Shown: positions 14,545 to 50,159 of the stretch, in pieces
How positions within the stretch are numbered: position 1 is the stretch's first letter
Layout: every line of letters starts with the position of its first letter
Origin: Bacteroidales bacterium
Lineage (GTDB): Bacteria > Bacteroidota > Bacteroidia > Bacteroidales > WCHB1-69
Assembly: GCA_017964255.1 (NCBI GenBank)
Contig: JAGCSI010000146.1
Location: 5,860-69,859 of the forward strand
Length of the DNA: 64,000 bases
Direction of reading: 5' to 3'
Position numbers and translations under genes: made by a program
The notes under the pieces: generated by a model
What the model saw: only the letters and a program-made list of their open reading frames with translations
Told to the model about the DNA's origin: nothing
Database searches by the model: none

Positions 14545-15801
14545 ATGAATATACTCGTTACCGGTGCGGCCGGGTTTATCGGTGCCAGTTTGGTGATGCG
14601 CCTCCTTCGCGACATGACCGAGGGCACCATCGTCGGCCTCGACAACCTCAACAGCTATTACGATGTCTCCCTCAAGGAGTACCGTCTGAAGAAGCTCGAT
14701 GCGCTCTATGCTCAAAGGATGGGGATTCCGGGTCCAGCCCGGAATGAGGGGACGTGTGTTCGGAATGAGGATTCCTCGTCGAGGGCGAAGACCCGCAATC
14801 TCCATTACGAATTTGTGAAGGGAAGTATTGCCGACCGCGAGCTGGTGAACAAGTTGTTTGAAGAATACAAGTTCGACATTGTGGTGAACCTGGCGGCACA
14901 GGCGGGCGTGCGGTACTCTATTGAGAATCCCGATGTGTATATCGAGAGCAACATCATAGGGTTTTACAATATCCTTGAAGCCAGTAGGCATTCTTACGAC
15001 CTCGTAGACTCCTCGTCGCAGGCGGGAGCCCGCGATCCTAATGCTGTCCCTCATTGCGGGCTTGACCCGCAATCTCAAGGGGATTCCGGCTCGGAGGCCG
15101 GAATGAGGGCTCAAGGCCAGAATGAGGGGTATAAAGGTGTTCAGCATCTCGTGTATGCTAGCAGTTCCAGTGTATATGGCGGCAACAAGAAAGTGCCCTT
15201 CAGCGTGGATGACCGAGTGGATAATCCTGTAAGTTTGTACGCCGCCACCAAGAAAAGCAACGAACTCTTCGCCCACTGCTACAGCAAACTCTACAACATC
15301 CCCACCACCGGCCTCCGTTTCTTCACCGTCTATGGCCCCGCTGGCCGTCCTGACATGGCTTATTTTGGTTTCACCAACAAGCTTCTGAAAGGTGAGACGA
15401 TACAGATATACAACTATGGCAACTGCCGCCGCGATTTCACCTACGTGGACGACATAGTGGAAGGAATTGTAAGAGTGATGCAGAAAGCCCCCGAGAAGCG
15501 TAATGGCGACGACGGCCTGCCGATTCCGCCTTATAAGGTGTACAACATTGGTGGCGGCCAGCCTGAGAATCTATTGGACTTTGTGCAGACTTTGCAGGAA
15601 GAACTGTTGAGAGCAGGTCTCCTTCCGCAGGATTACGATTTCGAGGCTCACAAGCAGCTGGTGCCGATGCAGCCTGGTGATGTACCCATCACGTATGCTG
15701 ACGCTACGGCATTGGAACGTGACTTTGGGTTTACGCCTAAAATTACGCTGAGAGAGGGATTGAGGAAGTTCGCGGAGTGGTATAAAGGATACTATGGTTG
15801 A
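14545..15801 (+). CDS. NAD-dependent sugar-nucleotide epimerase (UDP-glucuronate 4-epimerase-like SDR) carrying two in-frame repeat insertions
   Basis: 418 aa. It has the N-terminal VTGAAGFIG motif and the catalytic YAATK. About 65 extra residues (GIPGPARNEG..., HCGLDPQSQGDSGSEAGMRAQGQNEG) are encoded by GC-rich palindromes. Confidence 0.8.
   Translation: MNILVTGAAGFIGASLVMRLLRDMTEGTIVGLDNLNSYYDVSLKEYRLKKLDALYAQRMGIPGPARNEGTCVRNEDSSSRAKTRNLHYEFVKGSIADRELVNKLFEEYKFDIVVNLAAQAGVRYSIENPDVYIESNIIGFYNILEASRHSYDLVDSSSQAGARDPNAVPHCGLDPQSQGDSGSEAGMRAQGQNEGYKGVQHLVYASSSSVYGGNKKVPFSVDDRVDNPVSLYAATKKSNELFAHCYSKLYNIPTTGLRFFTVYGPAGRPDMAYFGFTNKLLKGETIQIYNYGNCRRDFTYVDDIVEGIVRVMQKAPEKRNGDDGLPIPPYKVYNIGGGQPENLLDFVQTLQEELLRAGLLPQDYDFEAHKQLVPMQPGDVPITYADATALERDFGFTPKITLREGLRKFAEWYKGYYG
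14721..14800. repeat. GC-rich palindromic element(s), in frame inside the epimerase
   Basis: It contains ATTCCGGG-TCCAG-CCCGGAAT-GAGGG (14725-14750), a further CGGAATGAGG half-site and the palindromes GAGGA-T-TCCTC and CCTCG-T-CGAGG. Confidence 0.85.
14996..15132. repeat. GC-rich palindromic element cluster, in frame inside the epimerase
   Basis: It contains CCCTCATTGCGGG-CTTGA-CCCGCAAT, ATTCCGGC-TCGGAG-GCCGGAAT-GAGGG and the half-site GGCCAGAATGAGGGG. Confidence 0.85.
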
Positions 15802-22179: not shown

Positions 22180-22186
22180 ATGAACT

Positions 22187-22246
22187 TGCGGCATCAGGCC
22201 TATGCGCAGCCGGAGCCGTTCAGGGGCAGGAGGGCAGCAACACAGC
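22187..22246 (+). promoter_or_regulatory. Leader RNA motif, copy B (5' half only, degenerate)
   Basis: The sequence ATGCGCAGCCGGAGCCGTTCAGGGGCAGGAGGGCAGCAACACAGC aligns block for block with copies C and D. It lacks the third hairpin. Confidence 0.4.
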
Positions 22247-22386
22247 ATGAGTGCAACACTGAACTTAAACAATGAAAATACTAGACTTCGATGAAGCTTG
22301 ATTGTTCAGTAGAAATATAGTTGCTCTGTAAGAGCCCTATAGTATAGAACGTCATAAATGATTGATTATAATAATTCATTTTATTA

Positions 22387-23520: not shown

Positions 23521-23652
23521 CAAGCGGCTCGGTCTTTATGCGCAGCCGGAGCCGCTTTAGGGGCGAAAGAGCATCCACACACTCTGGCCGCCCCAGATAT
23601 AGTGGCAGAAAGTTCCCGCTGGTCTCTCAAAAATGGTATAATTCCCAGCGGG
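23521..23652 (+). ncRNA. Candidate structured leader RNA, copy C (three hairpins)
   Basis: H1 is AGCGGCTC/GAGCCGCT (23523-30/23549-56), H2 is GGGGCG/CGCCCC (23560-65/23589-94) and H3 is CCCGCTGG/CCAGCGGG (23615-22/23645-52). The H3 loop TCTCTCAAAAATGGT is conserved. The element lies 68 nt upstream of ugd copy 2. Confidence 0.55.
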
Positions 23653-46543: not shown

Positions 46544-46690
46544 ATACGGCAATAGGCTTTTACGCGCAGCCATTGCCGTATTGGGGCAGAAGGGTAATCC
46601 ACACAGCCCGGATGCCCCTAACCATAAGTGGGTGGGTCAACGCTGGTCTCTCAAAGATGGTTCAATTTCCAGCGTTCCTGCCCGTTTTTT
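46544..46690 (+). ncRNA. Candidate structured leader RNA, copy D (three hairpins plus a T-run)
   Basis: H1 is ATACGGCAAT/ATTGCCGTAT (46544-53/46572-81), H2 is GGGGCA/TGCCCC and H3 is AACGCTGG/CCAGCGTT (46639-46/46669-76). The H3 loop TCTCTCAAAGATGGT is conserved. A TTTTTT run follows at 46685-90. The element lies upstream of the ATG at 46769. Confidence 0.55.
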
Positions 46691-46768
46691 GTAATTGAAT
46701 CTGAAAAAAAGAATCCTATAAGTTGTGAATATCAACTATACCTTCATAAAAGAATAAACAAGATTACT

Positions 46769-47635
46769 ATGAATATACTGACATTCGACGTAGAAGAATG
46801 GTTCCACCTTCTCGATTTCGATGCCACTCGCACCGAAGCCGACTGGGGGAAGTATGAGGTGAGGATACATGAGAATGTGGAACGCGTGTTTCGAATCCTG
46901 GAAGACACGAATACCAAGGCTACTTTTTTCATCATTGGCTGGATAGCGAAAACCTACCCCGAACTGGTAAAGAAAATAGCTGAGAAGTATCAGATTGGTT
47001 CGCACACGATGACGCATCAATTGGTATGGCAACAGAGTAGGGAAGCGTTCAAAGAGGATGTATCGGCTTCCATCAAACTGTTGGAAGACATTAGCGGTAA
47101 AGCTGTGGAATGTTTCCGGGCTCCGGGATTCTCTATTAGGGAGAGCGAAGCATGGGCTTTTGAAACGCTGGCGGAACTTGGGATAAAGTACGACAGTAGC
47201 GTTTTTCCTGCTCCAGCCTCGCATGGGGGAATGCCAAGTTATGGTGCGGCGGTGCCATCGATAATGGAGGTTGGCGGTGTGCAGATGAAGGAATTCCCTA
47301 TTCCGTATCACTCTTTTGCAGGCCGACATATCGTCTTCAACGGAGGTGGTTATTTCCGTCTGATGCCCTATCGTATCATCAGGAAGTGGACGAAGGAGAT
47401 CGCGGGTCAAGCCCGCGATGAGGGTTATTGTCTGAGTTACATTCATCCTCGTGACCTGGATGCCGGTCAACCTATGTTGGAAGGCCTTCCCGCCACCCGT
47501 AAGTTCAAGAGTTACGTTGGCTTGAAAGGCGCAGAAAACAAGCTACGGAAGTATTTGACGGAATTTGGGTTTATGGATATTGCCACGGCAGAGAAATTGG
47601 TGGATTGGAAGAATGCACCGGTGGTGCAATTATGA
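46769..47635 (+). CDS. Polysaccharide deacetylase family protein (DUF3473-type C-terminus)
   Basis: The ATG at 46769 is preferred (MNILTFDVEEWFH). HTMTH is also present. It carries an in-frame palindromic insert (EIAGQARDEG). Confidence 0.8.
   Translation: MNILTFDVEEWFHLLDFDATRTEADWGKYEVRIHENVERVFRILEDTNTKATFFIIGWIAKTYPELVKKIAEKYQIGSHTMTHQLVWQQSREAFKEDVSASIKLLEDISGKAVECFRAPGFSIRESEAWAFETLAELGIKYDSSVFPAPASHGGMPSYGAAVPSIMEVGGVQMKEFPIPYHSFAGRHIVFNGGGYFRLMPYRIIRKWTKEIAGQARDEGYCLSYIHPRDLDAGQPMLEGLPATRKFKSYVGLKGAENKLRKYLTEFGFMDIATAEKLVDWKNAPVVQL
47396..47424. repeat. Palindromic element GAG-ATCGCGGG-TCAAG-CCCGCGAT-GAGGG, in frame in the deacetylase
   Basis: This 29-mer is identical to 49569-49597 in fnlB and is read in the same frame in both genes. 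Confidence 0.95.
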
Positions 47636-47662
47636 GATTGCGGGTCTTTGCCCGCGATGAGG
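47634..47662. repeat. Palindromic element, intergenic copy abutting the deacetylase stop codon
   Basis: The sequence is GAG-ATTGCGGG-TCTTTG-CCCGCGAT-GAGGT, and it overlaps the TGA at 47633-35. Confidence 0.9.
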
Positions 47663-47701
47663 TAGAACAGTGATAAAAACAAAAATAATAAAAAATATTA
47701 A

Positions 47702-48793
47702 ATGAGTGTATTTCAAGACAAAACCCTCCTGATTACAGGAGGTACAGGCAGTTTCGGCAATGCTGTGCTGCGTAGGTTTTTAGACAGCGACATCAAGGAA
47801 ATCCGTATCTTGAGCCGCGATGAGAAGAAACAGGACGATATGCGCCACTACTTGCAGGCGCAGCGTCCGGATGTGTTCCACAAGGTGAAATTCTATATCG
47901 GCAACGTGCGTCAACGCGAGGCGGTGGACTTCGCCATGGGTGGGGTGGACTATGTGTTCAGCGCGGCTGCCCTGAAGCAGGTGCCCAGCTGCGAGTTCTT
48001 CCCTATGGAGGCGGTGCGCACCAATGTAGAGGGAACGAACAATGTGTTGTTGAGCGCTATTGCCCATGGTGTGAAAAATGTGGTGGTGCTCAGTACGGAC
48101 AAGGCAGCTTACCCCATCAATGCGATGGGTATCAGCAAGGCGATGATGGAAAAAGTGGCTATTGCGCAAGGCCGAGCCTTGGGTGAAGGAGCCGCTACCA
48201 CAATTTGCTGCACCCGTTACGGTAACGTAATGGCTAGCCGTGGTTCTGTTATTCCCCTTTGGGTGGAACAGATGATGGAAGGCAAGCCCATCACCATCAC
48301 CGACCCCAACATGACCCGCTTCATGATGACGCTGGATGATGCGGTGGATCTGGTTATTTATGCATTTACCCATGGCCACAATGGTGACCTCTTCGTGCAA
48401 AAAGCGCCTGCCGCTACACTCTCTGTGCTGGCACAGGCCCTGAAGGAGACTTATGCTAAGCTTGATCCCAAATACGGTGAGACGGAAGTGAAGGTGATTG
48501 GCACGCGCCACGGCGAGAAGCTCTATGAGACGCTGGTGACCCGCGAGGAGATGGCCCGCGCCATCGACATGGGCAATTACTTCAGGATTCCCTGCGATAG
48601 CCGCGACCTGAACTACGACAAGTATTTCACCGAGGGCAGTGAGGATATCTCCCGCATTGAGGACTATCACAGTCACAACACGGGTCAGCTTGACGTGGAG
48701 GGTATGAAGGAACTGCTCCTGAAATTAAGGTTTATACGTGAGGACTTGGGATTAGAGCCCAGAGCAAAGAGTAAGGATATTAGATCTGAATAA
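47702..48793 (+). CDS. fnlA: UDP-GlcNAc 4,6-dehydratase/5-epimerase (FnlA/Cap5E/WbjB)
   Basis: 363 aa. It has the hallmark N-terminus KTLLITGGTGSFGNAVLRRFLDSDIKEIRILSRDEKKQDDM. Confidence 0.88.
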   Translation: MSVFQDKTLLITGGTGSFGNAVLRRFLDSDIKEIRILSRDEKKQDDMRHYLQAQRPDVFHKVKFYIGNVRQREAVDFAMGGVDYVFSAAALKQVPSCEFFPMEAVRTNVEGTNNVLLSAIAHGVKNVVVLSTDKAAYPINAMGISKAMMEKVAIAQGRALGEGAATTICCTRYGNVMASRGSVIPLWVEQMMEGKPITITDPNMTRFMMTLDDAVDLVIYAFTHGHNGDLFVQKAPAATLSVLAQALKETYAKLDPKYGETEVKVIGTRHGEKLYETLVTREEMARAIDMGNYFRIPCDSRDLNYDKYFTEGSEDISRIEDYHSHNTGQLDVEGMKELLLKLRFIREDLGLEPRAKSKDIRSE

Positions 48794-48794
48794 G

Positions 48795-50159
48795 ATGAAA
48801 ATACTAGTTACCGGAGCCAAAGGCTTTGTGGGTAAAAACCTTTGTGCCCAATTAAGGAATATCAGGGATGGCAAAGCCCGGAATTATGCCGTGCAAATTG
48901 AGGAGATTTTCGAGTACGACATTGATTCCACACCAGAGGAATTGGAACTGGCCTGCCGAGAGGCGGACTTTGTATTCAACCTCGCCGGGGTGAACCGTCC
49001 GAAGGAAACCTCTGAGTTTATGGCGGGCAACTTCGGCTTTGCCTCTACTTTGCTTGATACTTTGAAGAAGCACGGCAATAAGTGCCCAATCATGCTCAGC
49101 AGTTCGCAGCAGGCAAGTCTGACGGGACGATTCGGGAATTCCGAATATGGAAGAAGTAAAAAAGCCGGAGAGGATCTCTTCTTGGAGTACGAAAGGGAGT
49201 TTTTGCAAGCAGCTCCTCATGCCGCAGTTGATGCGGCATCTCCAGGAGATTGCGGGTTTTCGCCCGCAATGAGGGATCAAGCCCGCGATGAGGGATTAAG
49301 ACCTCGTGTCTTAATCTACCGTTTCCCGAACCTTTTTGGCAAGTGGTGCCGGCCCAATTATAATTCCGCGGTGGCCACCTTCTGCAACGCTGTGGCGAAC
49401 GATTTGCCTTATACGGTGAATGATCCGTCTGTGGAACTGGAACTTCTGTACATTGATGACCTTGTGGAAGAAATGATTGCCTGTCTGCAGGGAAAGGAGC
49501 ACAGATGTGAGTTTGAAGGGCTGGAAGTAATCCCGACTCCTCATGCCGGACTTGATGCGGCATCTCCTGAGATCGCGGGTCAAGCCCGCGATGAGGGAAT
49601 AAACGTGGGCCGCTATTGTTACGTGCCAACCACCCACAAGGCTACTTTGGGTGAGATTGTGGATTTGCTGAATTCCTTTGCGGCACAGCCGTCAACGCTG
49701 ATGATTCCCGAGATTCCCGCCAACAGTTTTGCAAAGAAACTGTACTCTACATATCTCTCCTATTTGCCTAAGGAGAAGGCCGCCTTTCCGCTGAAGATGA
49801 ACGTAGACGACCGTGGCTCATTCACAGAGCTGGTGCATACGCCCAGTTGCGGTCAGGTGAGCATCAACATTTCCAAGCCCGGCATCACCAAGGGCCAGCA
49901 CTGGCATCACACCAAATTCGAGCAGTTCATTGTGGTAAAGGGTCATGGCCTGATTCAGCAACGTAACCTCAACGACCCTGAGGGCAAGATTTTGGAATGG
50001 GAGGTGAGCGGCGACAACATCCAGGCGGTTCACATGCTCCCGGGATACACCCACAACATCATCAACCTCAGTGACACCGAAGATCTTGTCACTGTCATGT
50101 ATTGCAACGAGATTTTCGATCCCAATAAACCGGATACATTTTTTGAAAAAGTTAAATAA
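48795..50159 (+). CDS. fnlB: FnlB/Cap5F/WbjC-type reductase (SDR plus C-terminal cupin) with two in-frame repeat insertions
   Basis: 454 aa. It has the N-terminal KILVTGAKGFVGKN and a C-terminal cupin region (GITKGQHWHHTK). About 60-85 extra residues are encoded by palindromic elements. Confidence 0.8.
   Translation: MKILVTGAKGFVGKNLCAQLRNIRDGKARNYAVQIEEIFEYDIDSTPEELELACREADFVFNLAGVNRPKETSEFMAGNFGFASTLLDTLKKHGNKCPIMLSSSQQASLTGRFGNSEYGRSKKAGEDLFLEYEREFLQAAPHAAVDAASPGDCGFSPAMRDQARDEGLRPRVLIYRFPNLFGKWCRPNYNSAVATFCNAVANDLPYTVNDPSVELELLYIDDLVEEMIACLQGKEHRCEFEGLEVIPTPHAGLDAASPEIAGQARDEGINVGRYCYVPTTHKATLGEIVDLLNSFAAQPSTLMIPEIPANSFAKKLYSTYLSYLPKEKAAFPLKMNVDDRGSFTELVHTPSCGQVSINISKPGITKGQHWHHTKFEQFIVVKGHGLIQQRNLNDPEGKILEWEVSGDNIQAVHMLPGYTHNIINLSDTEDLVTVMYCNEIFDPNKPDTFFEKVK
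49215..49294. repeat. Composite palindromic element, in frame in fnlB (insert A)
   Basis: It reads CCTC-ATGCCGC-AGTTGAT-GCGGCAT-CTCC, then ATTGCGGG-TTTTCG-CCCGCAAT-GAGGG, then the half-site TCAAG-CCCGCGAT-GAGGG. Confidence 0.9.
49539..49597. repeat. Composite palindromic element, in frame in fnlB (insert B)
   Basis: It reads CCTC-ATGCCG-GACTTGAT-GCGGCAT-CTCC, then ATCGCGGG-TCAAG-CCCGCGAT-GAGGG. Confidence 0.9.

What the first reader, a model, noticed from the sequence alone, without database searches (positions are those of the whole stretch)
47396..47662. The identical 29-mer palindrome occurs in the same reading frame in two unrelated enzymes, with a further copy sitting on the stop codon
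Seen in sequence: gagatcgcgggtcaagcccgcgatgaggg at 47396-47424 (polysaccharide deacetylase) is base-for-base identical to 49569-49597 (fnlB). Both begin on a codon boundary, and both translate to EIAGQARDEG. A third, slightly different copy (gagattgcgggtctttgcccgcgatgaggt, 47634-47662) starts inside the deacetylase TGA. Inference: identity across non-homologous genes argues for recent spread by transposition-like insertion or gene conversion rather than convergent protein evolution. The frame conservation suggests selection against frames with stops or deleterious peptides.
Basis: seen in the sequence. Interest (0 to 1): 0.65.

Follow-up and report, generated by a model that had tools for sequence, protein, structure and literature searches.

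The report
Hairpin repeats translated inside capsule enzymes
The identical 29-base palindromes are copies of a short hairpin DNA repeat common in rumen Bacteroidales; the repeat has landed in frame in surface loops of three capsule-sugar enzymes, and in related bacteria it flanks a tiny GIY-YIG nuclease gene, so this is a new example of a known kind of element.

Summary
GAGATCGCGGGTCAAGCCCGCGATGAGGG occurs exactly at 47396-47424 and 49569-49597. Both copies start on codon boundaries and read EIAGQARDEG. A 30-nt variant supplies the GA of the deacetylase TGA.

The window holds 9 intact, 2 degenerate and 3 half units. All lie in three sugar-nucleotide enzyme genes (deacetylase, FnlB, NAD-epimerase) or on the stop codon.

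Read on the other strand, the unit is CCTC-AT(stem)-loop-(stem)AT-CTC. That is the architecture of CGTC/TGTC/CCTC-tagged REPs (Di Nocera 2013), the class that includes Rickettsia RPE-4/-6 and the Neisseria NTS hairpins cut by Ssn GIY-YIG nucleases (Chenal 2025).

The same core occurs in about 40 other genomes, nearly all ruminant-gut Bacteroidales MAGs. In rumen metagenomes it brackets small GIY-YIG genes: 10 of the 11 closest relatives have one on both sides.

In orthologues, the same loops are empty or hold many different palindromic fillers, which change between close relatives.

Identity therefore reflects a conserved repeat family, not necessarily a recent event, and frame sharing is weak evidence. 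The element is a new member of a known kind.

The parts
47396..47424 (+). REP unit A (GAG-ATCGCGGG-TCAAG-CCCGCGAT-GAGGG) inside the polysaccharide deacetylase gene, read as EIAGQARDEG
   Evidence: Exact match. Frame. Hairpin -10.2 kcal/mol. The insert-free orthologue L119 has CAGTGCGGCAAT here, so 12 nt are replaced by 30 nt.
49569..49597 (+). REP unit B, identical to A, in FnlB slot 2, read as EIAGQARDEG
   Evidence: Absent from the insert-free FnlB allele L122.
47634..47663 (+). REP unit C (6-nt loop, one T-G pair). Its GA completes the deacetylase stop codon TGA. The probable original TAG follows at 47663-47665.
   Evidence: L120, a 95% identical orthologue, reads TTA TAG with no repeat there, which is consistent with a 30-nt insertion; the intergenic spacers differ otherwise. 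X13 shows 66 letters replacing 106 here.
49539..49567 (-). Partner REP unit (CCTC-ATGCCGGA-CTTGA-TGCGGCAT-CTCC), forming an inverted dimer with unit B, read as PHAGLDAASP
49215..49243 (-). REP unit in FnlB slot 1 (CCTC-ATGCCGCA-GTTGA-TGCGGCAT-CTCC), read as PHAAVDAASP
49246..49274 (+). REP unit in FnlB slot 1 with a 6-nt loop, read in the other frame as GDCGFSPAMR
49275..49294 (+). 3' half unit (GATCAAGCCCGCGATGAGGG), equal to unit A/B minus its 5' arm
   Evidence: Similar tandem half units follow full units in many loci.
14722..14749 (+). REP unit in epimerase slot 1 (stem ATTCCGGG), read as GIPGPARNEG
14760..14771 (+). 3' half unit (TCGGAATGAGGA) in epimerase slot 1
   Evidence: Read directly.
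14774..14803 (-). Degenerate unit carrying the CGTC tag (CCTCGTCGAGGGCGAAGACCCGCAATCTCC)
   Evidence: Read directly.
15011..15038 (-). Degenerate unit carrying the CGTC tag (CCTCGTCGCAGGCGGGAGCCCGCGATCC) in epimerase slot 2
15048..15076 (-). REP unit of the T/A stem subfamily, 2 mismatches from the 29-mer, read as PHCGLDPQSQ
15080..15108 (+). REP unit (stem ATTCCGGC, 6-nt loop), read as GDSGSEAGMR
15110..15129 (+). 3' half unit (CTCAAGGCCAGAATGAGGGG)
   Evidence: Read directly.
46766..47635 (+). Host gene 1: polysaccharide deacetylase (XrtA/PEP-CTERM type), 288 aa against 282 aa in most orthologues
   Evidence: TIGR03006 E = 1.8e-73, below the curated cut-off. 91 of 120 homologues are 282 aa.
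48795..50159 (+). Host gene 2: FnlB/Cap5F-type UDP-2-acetamido-2,6-dideoxy-hexulose reductase, 454 aa against 400 aa for insert-free alleles and 369 aa for S. aureus Cap5F
   Evidence: NF047837 matched in 3 stretches. Cap5F alignment is broken at query residues 137-171 and 234-276. Homologue lengths run 400-474 aa.
14545..15801 (+). Host gene 3: NAD-dependent sugar-nucleotide epimerase/dehydratase (SDR), 418 aa against 351 aa at the minimum
   Evidence: Alignment to 5U4Q is broken at residues 52-88 and 151-198. Homologue lengths run 351-425 aa.

Best explanation
The 29-mer is one unit of a dispersed, hairpin-forming repeat family of ruminant-gut Bacteroidales.

Read on its tagged strand, the unit is CCTC (tag), then an 8-bp G+C-rich stem that starts with AT, a 5-6 nt loop, the return stem, then CTC. 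This is the architecture of the CGTC/TGTC/CCTC-tagged REPs. That class includes Rickettsia RPE-4/-6, Neisseria dRS3/NTS and the 'Ssn-related motifs'.

Shown here:
- Units of 28-30 nt, alone, as inverted dimers or with tandem half units, sit inside three intact enzyme genes.
- They are read through as 9-10 hydrophilic residues each.
- They lie where alignments to solved homologues break between conserved blocks.
- The same positions in orthologues are empty or hold other palindromic elements.
- In related bacteria the same hairpin brackets a small GIY-YIG nuclease gene, with tags outward and the gene's stop codon inside the 3' hairpin.

Inferred:
- The units spread as DNA through a single-strand hairpin-specific process in which an Ssn-like GIY-YIG nuclease is the partner enzyme.
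- Selection then keeps only insertions that preserve the frame, avoid the two frames with TGA, and fall in permissive loops.
- A unit of 30 nt keeps the frame by itself.
- The elements are most likely neutral or selfish passengers here, not functional peptide modules.
For: Family and structure:
- There are 3 matches against 0 expected by chance.
- The window holds 9 intact units with head GAG/GGG and tail GAGG.
- 875 kb of related loci hold 200 units with 10 fully compensated stem types. The head is GAG in 185 of 200. The tail is GAGG in 197 and GACG (the CGTC tag) in 20.
- The hairpins are stable as ssDNA.

Distribution:
- At least 118 loci and 128 copies match in about 40 genomes; 115 of 118 records are Bacteroidales/Bacteroidia MAGs, nearly all from ruminants.
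- No match was found in 2.9 million viral contigs.
- Contig depth over the repeat is 15-30 times that of its flanks in rumen metagenomes.

Insertions:
- Orthologues without the inserts exist for all three genes.
- L120 lacks the stop-codon copy, and the site is consistent with a 30-nt insertion before TAG.
- A strain about 97% identical in fnlB carries a different slot-1 filler.
- True intragenic copies elsewhere lie in alpha-2-macroglobulin, radical-SAM, HemN-like, DegT and primase genes.

Loop location: the inserts fall between Cap5F residues 121-125 and 187-196, and between 5U4Q residues 53-57 and at residue 120.

Partner enzyme:
- GIY-YIG ORFs in L002 (two copies), L061, L024 and L055 abut the repeat.
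- Loci chosen by the GIY-YIG protein alone gave 11 relatives at 75% identity or more. All 11 have CCTC hairpins within 150 nt, and 10 have them on both sides. That is 25 hairpins in 3.3 kb against 14 in 23.8 kb elsewhere, about 12-fold.
- The exact reverse complement of the window core is the upstream hairpin in L126 and L127.
- More distant GIY-YIG relatives carry CGTC or TGTC tags.

Literature:
- The class definition, its intragenic units and RPE-4/-6 membership come from PMC3733652.
- Ssn GIY-YIG nucleases bind NTS (CGTCATTCCCGCG..GCGGGAATC) as ssDNA. The C after the palindrome is critical for binding, the 3 nt upstream govern cleavage, and the genes sit in an NTS-ssnA-NTS arrangement (PMC11893778).
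Against: - No transposition event, excision product or target rule was observed.
- Two of three empty/filled comparisons are not clean insertions. In the deacetylase, 12 nt are replaced by 30. In FnlB slot 1, 12 nt are replaced by 54.
- The window has no GIY-YIG gene and no HUH/Y1-motif ORF.
Whether this organism has the nuclease, or many more copies, is therefore unknown.
- The published SRM search pattern does not match these units, even with the tag relaxed.
- Membership of the GIY-YIG protein in the Ssn clade (cd10448) could not be tested. Only Pfam GIY-YIG matched, and there was no PDB relative.
- Ssn is shown to be a nuclease, not a transposase.
- The AlphaFold model was too poor (mean pLDDT 53.5) to confirm that the inserts are surface loops.
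Confidence: 0.8

Rival explanations
1. The identity of the two copies comes from recent gene conversion or recombination between the two genes or between alleles, not from insertion of a mobile unit.
For: Slot contents differ between strains whose flanks are about 97% identical. Capsule loci recombine often (general knowledge). Two empty/filled comparisons look like replacements rather than clean insertions.
Against: The shared stretch is exactly 29 nt with unrelated flanks. The same 29-mer occurs in at least 6 other species in unrelated contexts. The family has hundreds of dispersed copies.
Confidence: 0.08
2. The hairpins are kept because they do something for the host. Candidate roles are an NTS-like signal that lets a resident Ssn nuclease limit recombination or transformation of capsule genes, an mRNA hairpin that tunes translation or stability within the operon, or a useful loop peptide.
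For: In Neisseria, NTS repeats cluster around surface-antigen genes and modulate transformation. All 14 units of this 64-kb window lie in capsule-sugar genes. The core is strongly conserved across families.
Against: The fillers of the same loops are unrelated in sequence between orthologues, and insert-free alleles are common. The compensating change alters the residue (N/D), so the peptide is not conserved. Host genes elsewhere are unrelated to capsules. There is no Rfam match and no T-run after the stop-codon copy.
Confidence: 0.1
3. It is a classical GTAG-type REP/REPIN system moved by a RAYT (TnpA-REP, HUH-Y1) transposase.
For: It shows the general REP features: short G+C-rich hairpins, inverted dimers and clusters. 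Earlier notes of this scan reported GTAG 'double-foot' REPs in frame in other rumen Bacteroidales.
Against: There is no GTAG/CTAC foot; the flanks are CCTC...CTC. No HUH...YxxNP ORF was found in the window or in 875 kb of loci. The flanked genes are GIY-YIG.
Confidence: 0.02

Closest known systems
CGTC-tagged REPs (families CGTC-1 to -4; Di Nocera, De Gregorio & Rocco 2013, PMC3733652), which include R. conorii RPE-4/RPE-6 and Neisseria dRS3
   Same: A tag at one end, with CCTC and TGTC listed as common variants of CGTC. An 8-9 bp stem that starts with AT. A short loop and a 3-nt unpaired tail. Inverted dimers. Units found inside ORFs as singles, dimers or clusters that encode 10 to about 80 residues. 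The encoded peptides are analogous: WMPGTRPGMT and DARHKAGHD there, EIAGQARDEG and PHAGLDAASP here.
   Different: The tail is CTC rather than CCA. Loops are 5-6 nt rather than 4-5. The host group is ruminant-gut Bacteroidales. That paper found no associated enzyme, whereas a GIY-YIG gene is bracketed by these units here. Tandem 3' half units are common here.
NTS/SRM hairpin repeats and their Ssn GIY-YIG ssDNA nucleases (Chenal et al. 2025, PMC11893778)
   Same: The NTS, CGTC-ATTCCCGCG-loop-GCGGGAAT-C..., has the same layout, including the C directly after the palindrome. The repeat-nuclease-repeat gene architecture is the same. The partner is a single-domain GIY-YIG protein of about 95-120 aa. 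Repeat variant tracks nuclease lineage.
   Different: The published SRM search pattern does not match these units. Bacteroidota are not mentioned in the main text. NTS are only 2% intragenic in N. meningitidis, whereas 13 of 14 units are intragenic in this window. No biochemistry exists for this subfamily, and membership of the nuclease in cd10448 was not tested.
Rickettsia palindromic elements (RPE-1 type, about 100-150 bp; Ogata et al., as summarised in PMC10969869)
   Same: Palindromic repeats inserted in frame into unrelated metabolic genes and translated as extra loops, apparently compatible with protein function.
   Different: RPE-1 elements are several times longer, encode a conserved peptide, and are restricted to Rickettsia. 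The units here are 28-30 nt, and the constraint is on the hairpin.
REP/REPIN-RAYT systems ('REPtrons'; Nunvar 2010, Bertels & Rainey 2011, Quentin 2018 PMC6006769)
   Same: An enzyme gene bracketed by inverted copies of a hairpin that is dispersed through the genome. Inverted doublets occur. In-frame REP insertions are reported for subclass 2.4.
   Different: The enzyme superfamily differs (GIY-YIG rather than HUH-Y1), and the foot is CCTC rather than GTAG.

Membership tests
CGTC/TGTC/CCTC-tagged REP superfamily (Di Nocera 2013) | Conserved tetranucleotide tag (CGTC, or its variants TGTC/CCTC) at one end of the hairpin | tested here: met
   All 9 intact window units have CCTC on the tagged strand. 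In related loci, 197 units have CCTC and 20 have CGTC. Two degenerate window units carry CGTC within CCTCGTC.
CGTC/TGTC/CCTC-tagged REP superfamily (Di Nocera 2013) | Stem of 8-9 bp whose first two pairs are A-T and T-A | tested here: met
   AT(N6)...(N6)AT in all units, with 8-9 bp stems.
CGTC/TGTC/CCTC-tagged REP superfamily (Di Nocera 2013) | Loop of 4-5 nt and a short unpaired 3-nt tail (consensus CCA) | tested here: inconclusive
   Loops are 5-6 nt, or 3-4 if the extra closing pair forms. A 3-nt tail is present, but it is CTC, not CCA.
CGTC/TGTC/CCTC-tagged REP superfamily (Di Nocera 2013) | High copy number dispersed in the host genome | not testable with these tools
The window has 14 units. 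Related genomes have up to 12 or more hits each in a capped scan.
Ssn/SRM system (Chenal 2025) | Repeat matches the published SRM search pattern HGTCWYN(0-2)YYVSBRHN(0-5)WNVSBRGN(0-2)RNCYNB | tested here: not met
   There are 0 matches in the window, even with position 2 relaxed to S. The NTS control matches.
Ssn/SRM system (Chenal 2025) | Small single-domain GIY-YIG gene flanked on both sides by the repeat | tested here: met
   Met in related bacteria, not in this window. L002 (two copies), L061 and L055 are flanked on both sides. All 11 closest metagenomic relatives carry the repeat nearby, 10 of them on both sides, a 12-fold local enrichment.
Ssn/SRM system (Chenal 2025) | Nuclease belongs to the cd10448 clade and cuts ssDNA next to its hairpin | not testable with these tools
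   Only Pfam GIY-YIG matched (E = 5.6e-14). There was no specific NCBIfam hit and no PDB relative. No CDD library is available and no biochemistry exists.
Ssn/SRM system (Chenal 2025) | Conserved C immediately after the palindrome and a conserved 3 nt before it | tested here: met
   Units read ...AT-C-TC after the palindrome and C-CTC-AT... before it. The head is GAG (its complement is CTC) in 185 of 200 units.
GTAG REP / RAYT | GT[AG]G foot and an associated HUH-Y1 (RAYT) gene | tested here: not met
   There is no GTAG foot. No HUH..YxxNP ORF was found in the window or in 875 kb of loci. This motif test is weak, and the whole genome was not searched.
Rickettsia palindromic elements (RPE-1 type) | A 100-150 bp element encoding a conserved peptide, restricted to Rickettsia | tested here: not met
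   Units are 28-30 nt in Bacteroidales, and the peptide varies with frame and stem. The behaviour is analogous, but this is not a member.
MITE | Terminal inverted repeats plus a target-site duplication | tested here: inconclusive
   The whole unit is one hairpin. The flanking GAG...GAGG is constant and so is not target-derived. The one comparatively clean empty/filled pair is consistent with a 30-nt insertion with at most a 1-nt ambiguity.

The most novel reading that the evidence does not exclude
Certain enzyme loops act as self-renewing 'slots'. Once a tagged hairpin sits there, it becomes the preferred landing or repair site for the next one, perhaps because a resident Ssn-like nuclease cuts the hairpin in single-stranded DNA and repair copies another family member. 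Whichever repeat family a genome carries would then overwrite the same coding positions.

This would be a nuclease-driven cassette exchange inside genes. It would make specific loops of capsule enzymes hypervariable.

In support: FnlB slot 1 has 74 distinct fillers among 120 homologues. On a tree built without the slot columns, filler class changes at least 33 times. Both slots of a gene hold the same repeat family in 38 of 51 cases, against 11 expected by shuffling. Nested and half units occur in L121 and in the window.
Probability: 0.15. Interest if true: 0.7.

Novelty: new member of a known kind. Interest (0 to 1): 0.42.

Why it matters
The finding places a very abundant repeat of ruminant-gut Bacteroidales into a defined class, the tagged REP / Ssn-related hairpins. 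It extends that class to a CCTC-tagged subfamily that the published search motif misses.

It also shows that in these bacteria such hairpins are often translated inside intact enzymes. Until now this behaviour was mainly associated with Rickettsia.

Practical consequences:
- Protein length and 'low-complexity loop' differences among rumen MAG orthologues are often repeat insertions, not assembly or annotation errors.
- Short-read assemblies break at these units.
- The paired GIY-YIG genes are candidates for new sequence-specific ssDNA nucleases with a CCTC-type specificity.

Tried and rejected
- RAYT hypothesis: a motif scan for HUH...YxxNP ORFs in the window plus 875 kb of loci found nothing, and there is no GTAG foot.
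- Phage carriage: 0 matches in the viral contigs.
- Known RNA family: no Rfam hit in 14000-52000.
- AlphaFold2 model of FnlB from a 24-sequence alignment: mean pLDDT 53.5, unusable for placing the loops. Sequence alignment to Cap5F and 5U4Q was used instead.
- Crude 'intragenic' count: 54 of 128 copies lie in stop-free stretches of at least 150 codons. This overstates the case, because many lie at relative position below 0.15 or above 0.9 of a stop-to-stop ORF, or on the antisense strand. Only about 20-25 are convincingly internal.
- RNA evidence: only one run of uncertain type was found. It carries a related allele, not this one, so transcription or translation of the inserts was not shown.
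- A GCGGG..CCCGC hit at 172-189 is native coding sequence of the polysaccharide-export gene (...PAGGKTRDEL...), not a family member.
- Target-site rule: not derivable, because the empty and filled alleles are too diverged.
Full report
**1. The observation**

The 29-mer GAGATCGCGGGTCAAGCCCGCGATGAGGG occurs exactly at 47396-47424 and 49569-49597 on the + strand. A copy with two mismatches lies at 15048-15076 on the - strand. None were found in 100 dinucleotide-preserving shuffles.

Both exact copies begin on codon boundaries of long ORFs and read EIAGQARDEG. Identity ends exactly at the 29 nt.

The third copy, GAGATTGCGGGTCTTTGCCCGCGATGAGGT, starts at 47634, inside the TGA at 47633-47635. As written it is 30 nt and ends at 47663. 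Each unit is a stable DNA hairpin; the 29-mer gives -10.2 kcal/mol with z = -4.4.

**2.

The host genes are:
- a polysaccharide deacetylase (46766-47635; TIGR03006-like),
- an FnlB/Cap5F-type reductase (48795-50159),
- a third, unrelated SDR epimerase/dehydratase (14545-15801).

A hairpin scan finds 9 intact units in the window, with AT-stems at 14725, 15053, 15083, 47399, 47637, 49219, 49249, 49543 and 49572. There are also 2 degenerate units (14774-14803, 15011-15038) and 3 tandem 3' half units.

All lie in these three genes or on the deacetylase stop codon. None lies elsewhere in the 64 kb.

In fnlB the units form inverted dimers, [CCTC-AT..AT-CTCC][GAG-AT..AT-GAGG]. The outer flanks of each dimer also pair.

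**3. Anatomy**

On one strand every unit reads (G/T)GAG-AT-N6-loop(5-6)-N6-AT-GAGG. On the other strand it reads CCTC-AT...AT-CTC(C).

In 875 kb of related loci there are 200 such units with perfect 8-bp stems of 10 different sequences. The head is GAG in 185 of 200. The tail is GAGG in 197 and GACG (the CGTC tag) in 20.

In the 128 copies that match the search pattern, the variable stem pair is compensated in 125 (T with A, or C with G). In the EIAGQAR(N/D)E frame, that change is synonymous on one arm (ATT/ATC) and changes the residue on the other (N/D). The constraint is therefore on the hairpin, not the peptide.

**4. Frames**

The 5-nt-loop unit is open in four frames: EIAGQAR(D/N)E, R(S/L)RVKPAMR, PH(R/C)GLDP(R/Q)S and LIAGLTR(D/N)L. 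It has TGA in the other two. A 6-nt loop shifts which frames are open.

In the window, + units with 5-nt loops use frame +1 (3 of 3). Units on the - strand use the PH.. frame (3 of 3). Units with 6-nt loops use +3 (2 of 2).

Across genomes, copies lying in long ORFs use every open frame. Many of those ORFs are not verified genes, so this is a weak test. Two same-strand copies sharing a frame is weak evidence, and stop avoidance is real but modest. A 30-nt unit preserves the frame by itself.

**5. Are they insertions?**

*FnlB.* Homologues at 75-82% identity range from 400 to 474 aa. The differences sit in two slots: after residue 135 (occupied in 89 of 120, with 74 distinct fillers) and after about residue 251 (85 of 120). 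The homologue list is biased towards sequences that share words with the query, so these occupancy fractions may be inflated.

Insert-free alleles read LQYGQETGAK|VFVYRF and PTED|GRYCY.

*Epimerase.* Lengths range from 351 to 425 aa. The slots are after residue 61 (82 of 120 occupied) and after residue 149 (103 of 120, with 72 distinct fillers). L015 and L023, from other species, carry the same REP in the second slot in the opposite orientation to the window's copy. L111 carries one in the first slot.

*Deacetylase.* 91 of 120 homologues are 282 aa, reading KWTKQCG(N/D)YCL. The window has KWTK-EIAGQARDEG-YCL. At the DNA level, 12 nt (CAGTGCGGCAAT) are replaced by 30 nt.

L120 is 95% identical and has the same unit with one substitution. 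L121 has a unit nested in the remains of another.

*Stop-codon copy.* L120 reads TTA TAG. The window reads TTA T[GAGATT...GATGAGG]TAG. This is consistent with a 30-nt insertion in front of the old stop, with the new TGA built from T plus the GA of the repeat. The rest of the two intergenic spacers differs, so the junction is not certain.

**6. Location in the proteins**

In alignment to S. aureus Cap5F (2ZKL/3ST7), the FnlB inserts fall between Cap5F residues 121-125 and 187-196. In alignment to 5U4Q, the epimerase inserts fall between residues 53-57 and at residue 120.

Several of these positions follow a helix and precede a Rossmann strand. Such connections lie on the side away from the cofactor. 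This is an inference from SDR topology, and the AlphaFold model was too poor to check it.

The nucleotide-binding and catalytic motifs are intact by direct reading: GxxGxxG, YGRSK, SSSSVYG and YAATK.

**7. Turnover**

The fillers of the FnlB slots belong to several unrelated palindromic families. These include CCTC-REP dimers, TGTC-REP dimers (..SVILSEAKDL..), elements with 7-nt repeat arms (NADDADKAD..SAKSAG), and others.

On a FastTree built without the slot columns, filler class changes at least 33 times over 120 tips, and well-supported sister sequences differ.

Both slots of one gene hold the same family in 38 of 51 classifiable cases, against 11.3 in shuffles. This test does not correct for relatedness among the sequences.

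Metagenomic contigs about 97% identical to the window's fnlA-fnlB carry a different slot-1 filler with TGTCAAC heptamers. These contigs come from different studies. Slot content therefore tracks the genome's repeat repertoire rather than the gene's ancestry.

**8. Distribution**

A capped scan of one genome per species found at least 118 loci and 128 copies in about 40 genomes. 115 of the 118 records are Bacteroidales/Bacteroidia MAGs, nearly all from ruminant hosts. They include F082, P3, Prevotellaceae, Bacteroidaceae and Ca. Limimorpha. The exceptions are one Rhodohalobacter, one unclassified Bacteroidota MAG and one unclassified bacterial MAG.

The exact 29-mer is in at least 7 loci of at least 6 other species. 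Identity between the two window copies is therefore not evidence of recency.

There are no hits in viral contigs and no Rfam family. Contig depth over the unit is 15-30 times that of its flanks in rumen metagenomes.

Most copies elsewhere are intergenic or at gene ends. They are often one half of a spaced inverted dimer or the core of heptamer-armed elements. About 20-25 are convincingly internal to genes such as alpha-2-macroglobulin, radical-SAM, HemN-like, DegT and primase.

**9. What class is it?**

The CCTC tag, the 8-bp stem that starts with AT, the short loop, the 3-nt tail, the inverted dimers and the intragenic units all match the CGTC-tagged REPs of Di Nocera et al. That paper lists CCTC and TGTC as tag variants. 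It includes RPE-4/-6 and Neisseria dRS3, and it found no dedicated enzyme.

Chenal et al. (2025) showed that the Neisseria NTS (CGTCATTCCCGCG..GCGGGAATC..) is bound and cut as ssDNA by a 94-aa GIY-YIG nuclease, SsnA. The gene for SsnA is bracketed by the repeat. The C after the palindrome and the 3 nt before it are the key positions.

**10. The partner gene, tested here**

While listing host genes, I found a GIY-YIG ORF bracketed by the repeat in L002 and L061. Five of six GIY-YIG genes in the repeat-selected loci abut units.

To remove that selection bias, I searched metagenomes with the GIY-YIG protein alone. Eleven relatives had at least 75% identity. All 11 have CCTC hairpins within 150 nt, and 10 have them on both sides. 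The typical layout is [CCTC-ATCGCGGGC-ttg-ACCCGCGAT-C], then 12 nt, then ATG...GIY-YIG..., then [GAG-ATTCCGGG..AT-GAGG]. The tags face outward, and the ORF's TGA lies inside the 3' hairpin.

Local density is about 12 times that of the rest of the same loci. The upstream hairpin in L126 and L127 is the exact reverse complement of the window's core. More distant relatives (53-59% identity) carry CGTC or TGTC tags. The tag therefore follows the nuclease lineage.

Earlier notes of this scan report the same pairing in other phyla. I treated them as leads. One of them pointed me to the Chenal paper.

**11. Limits**

- The published SRM pattern does not match these units.
- The cd10448 membership of the nuclease could not be tested.
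- No GIY-YIG or HUH gene lies in the window.
- How units move, and whether Ssn-type enzymes move them at all, is unknown.

**12. Verdict**

The element is a CCTC-tagged member of the CGTC-REP / Ssn-related hairpin class. It is translated in frame in permissive loops of three capsule enzymes. This is a new member of a known kind.

The hypervariable 'slot' behaviour is the part most worth following up.

Noticed in passing
L126:1464-1890 (also L127, L130, L132, L133): A minimal unit: CCTC hairpin, 12 nt, an ORF of about 120 codons encoding a GIY-YIG protein, then an inverted hairpin. The ORF's stop codon is the TGA inside the 3' hairpin (ATGAGG). This is the one frame of the repeat that carries a stop.
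   Followed up: partly
window 49294-49316: A 9-bp inverted repeat, GATTAAGAC / GTCTTAATC, with a 5-nt loop (CTCGT). It spans the right edge of FnlB slot 1 and the native codons V-L-I. The conserved 'GLRPR' boundary in this allele is therefore partly an inverted copy of the adjacent coding sequence. The same repeat is not present in L123 or L125.
   Followed up: partly
FnlB homologues P0044-P0118, L124/L125 slot 2: Another tagged repeat occupies FnlB slot 2 in many alleles. It is a TGTC-tagged dimer (TGTCATCCTGAGCGAAGCGAAGGATC ... GATTCTTCGGCTACGCCTCAGAATGACA), read as TPSVILSEAKDLDSSATPQNDK.
   Followed up: partly
loci L004, L028, L038, L039, L045, L054, L058, L085, L106: In other genomes the same 29-30-nt core sits at the centre of long palindromes. 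Their arms are tandem 7-nt repeats (GGCTTCT / CCAGAAG type). This links the 'heptamer-armed hairpins' noted elsewhere in this scan to the same core.
   Followed up: no
window 22184-22255, 23523-23578 (and about 46544-46676): A different G+C-rich recurrent element (..TATGCGCAGCCGGAGCCG..AGGGGC..) lies upstream of polysaccharide operons. It is unrelated to the CCTC hairpins.
   Followed up: no
window 47396-47424 and 49569-49597, in runs X1, X5, X7: Short-read unitigs of independent metagenomes end exactly at the 29-mer copies. One chimeric joint, 47423 to 49569, appears in two runs. The repeat therefore breaks or mis-joins assemblies at these genes.
   Followed up: partly
L121:3001-3888 (deacetylase orthologue): A nested arrangement: GAGGTTGCGGG | GATCCCGGGTCAAGCCCGGGATGAGGG | TATTAACGAGGG. 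An intact unit lies inside the remains of an older one, in the same loop as the window's copy.
   Followed up: partly
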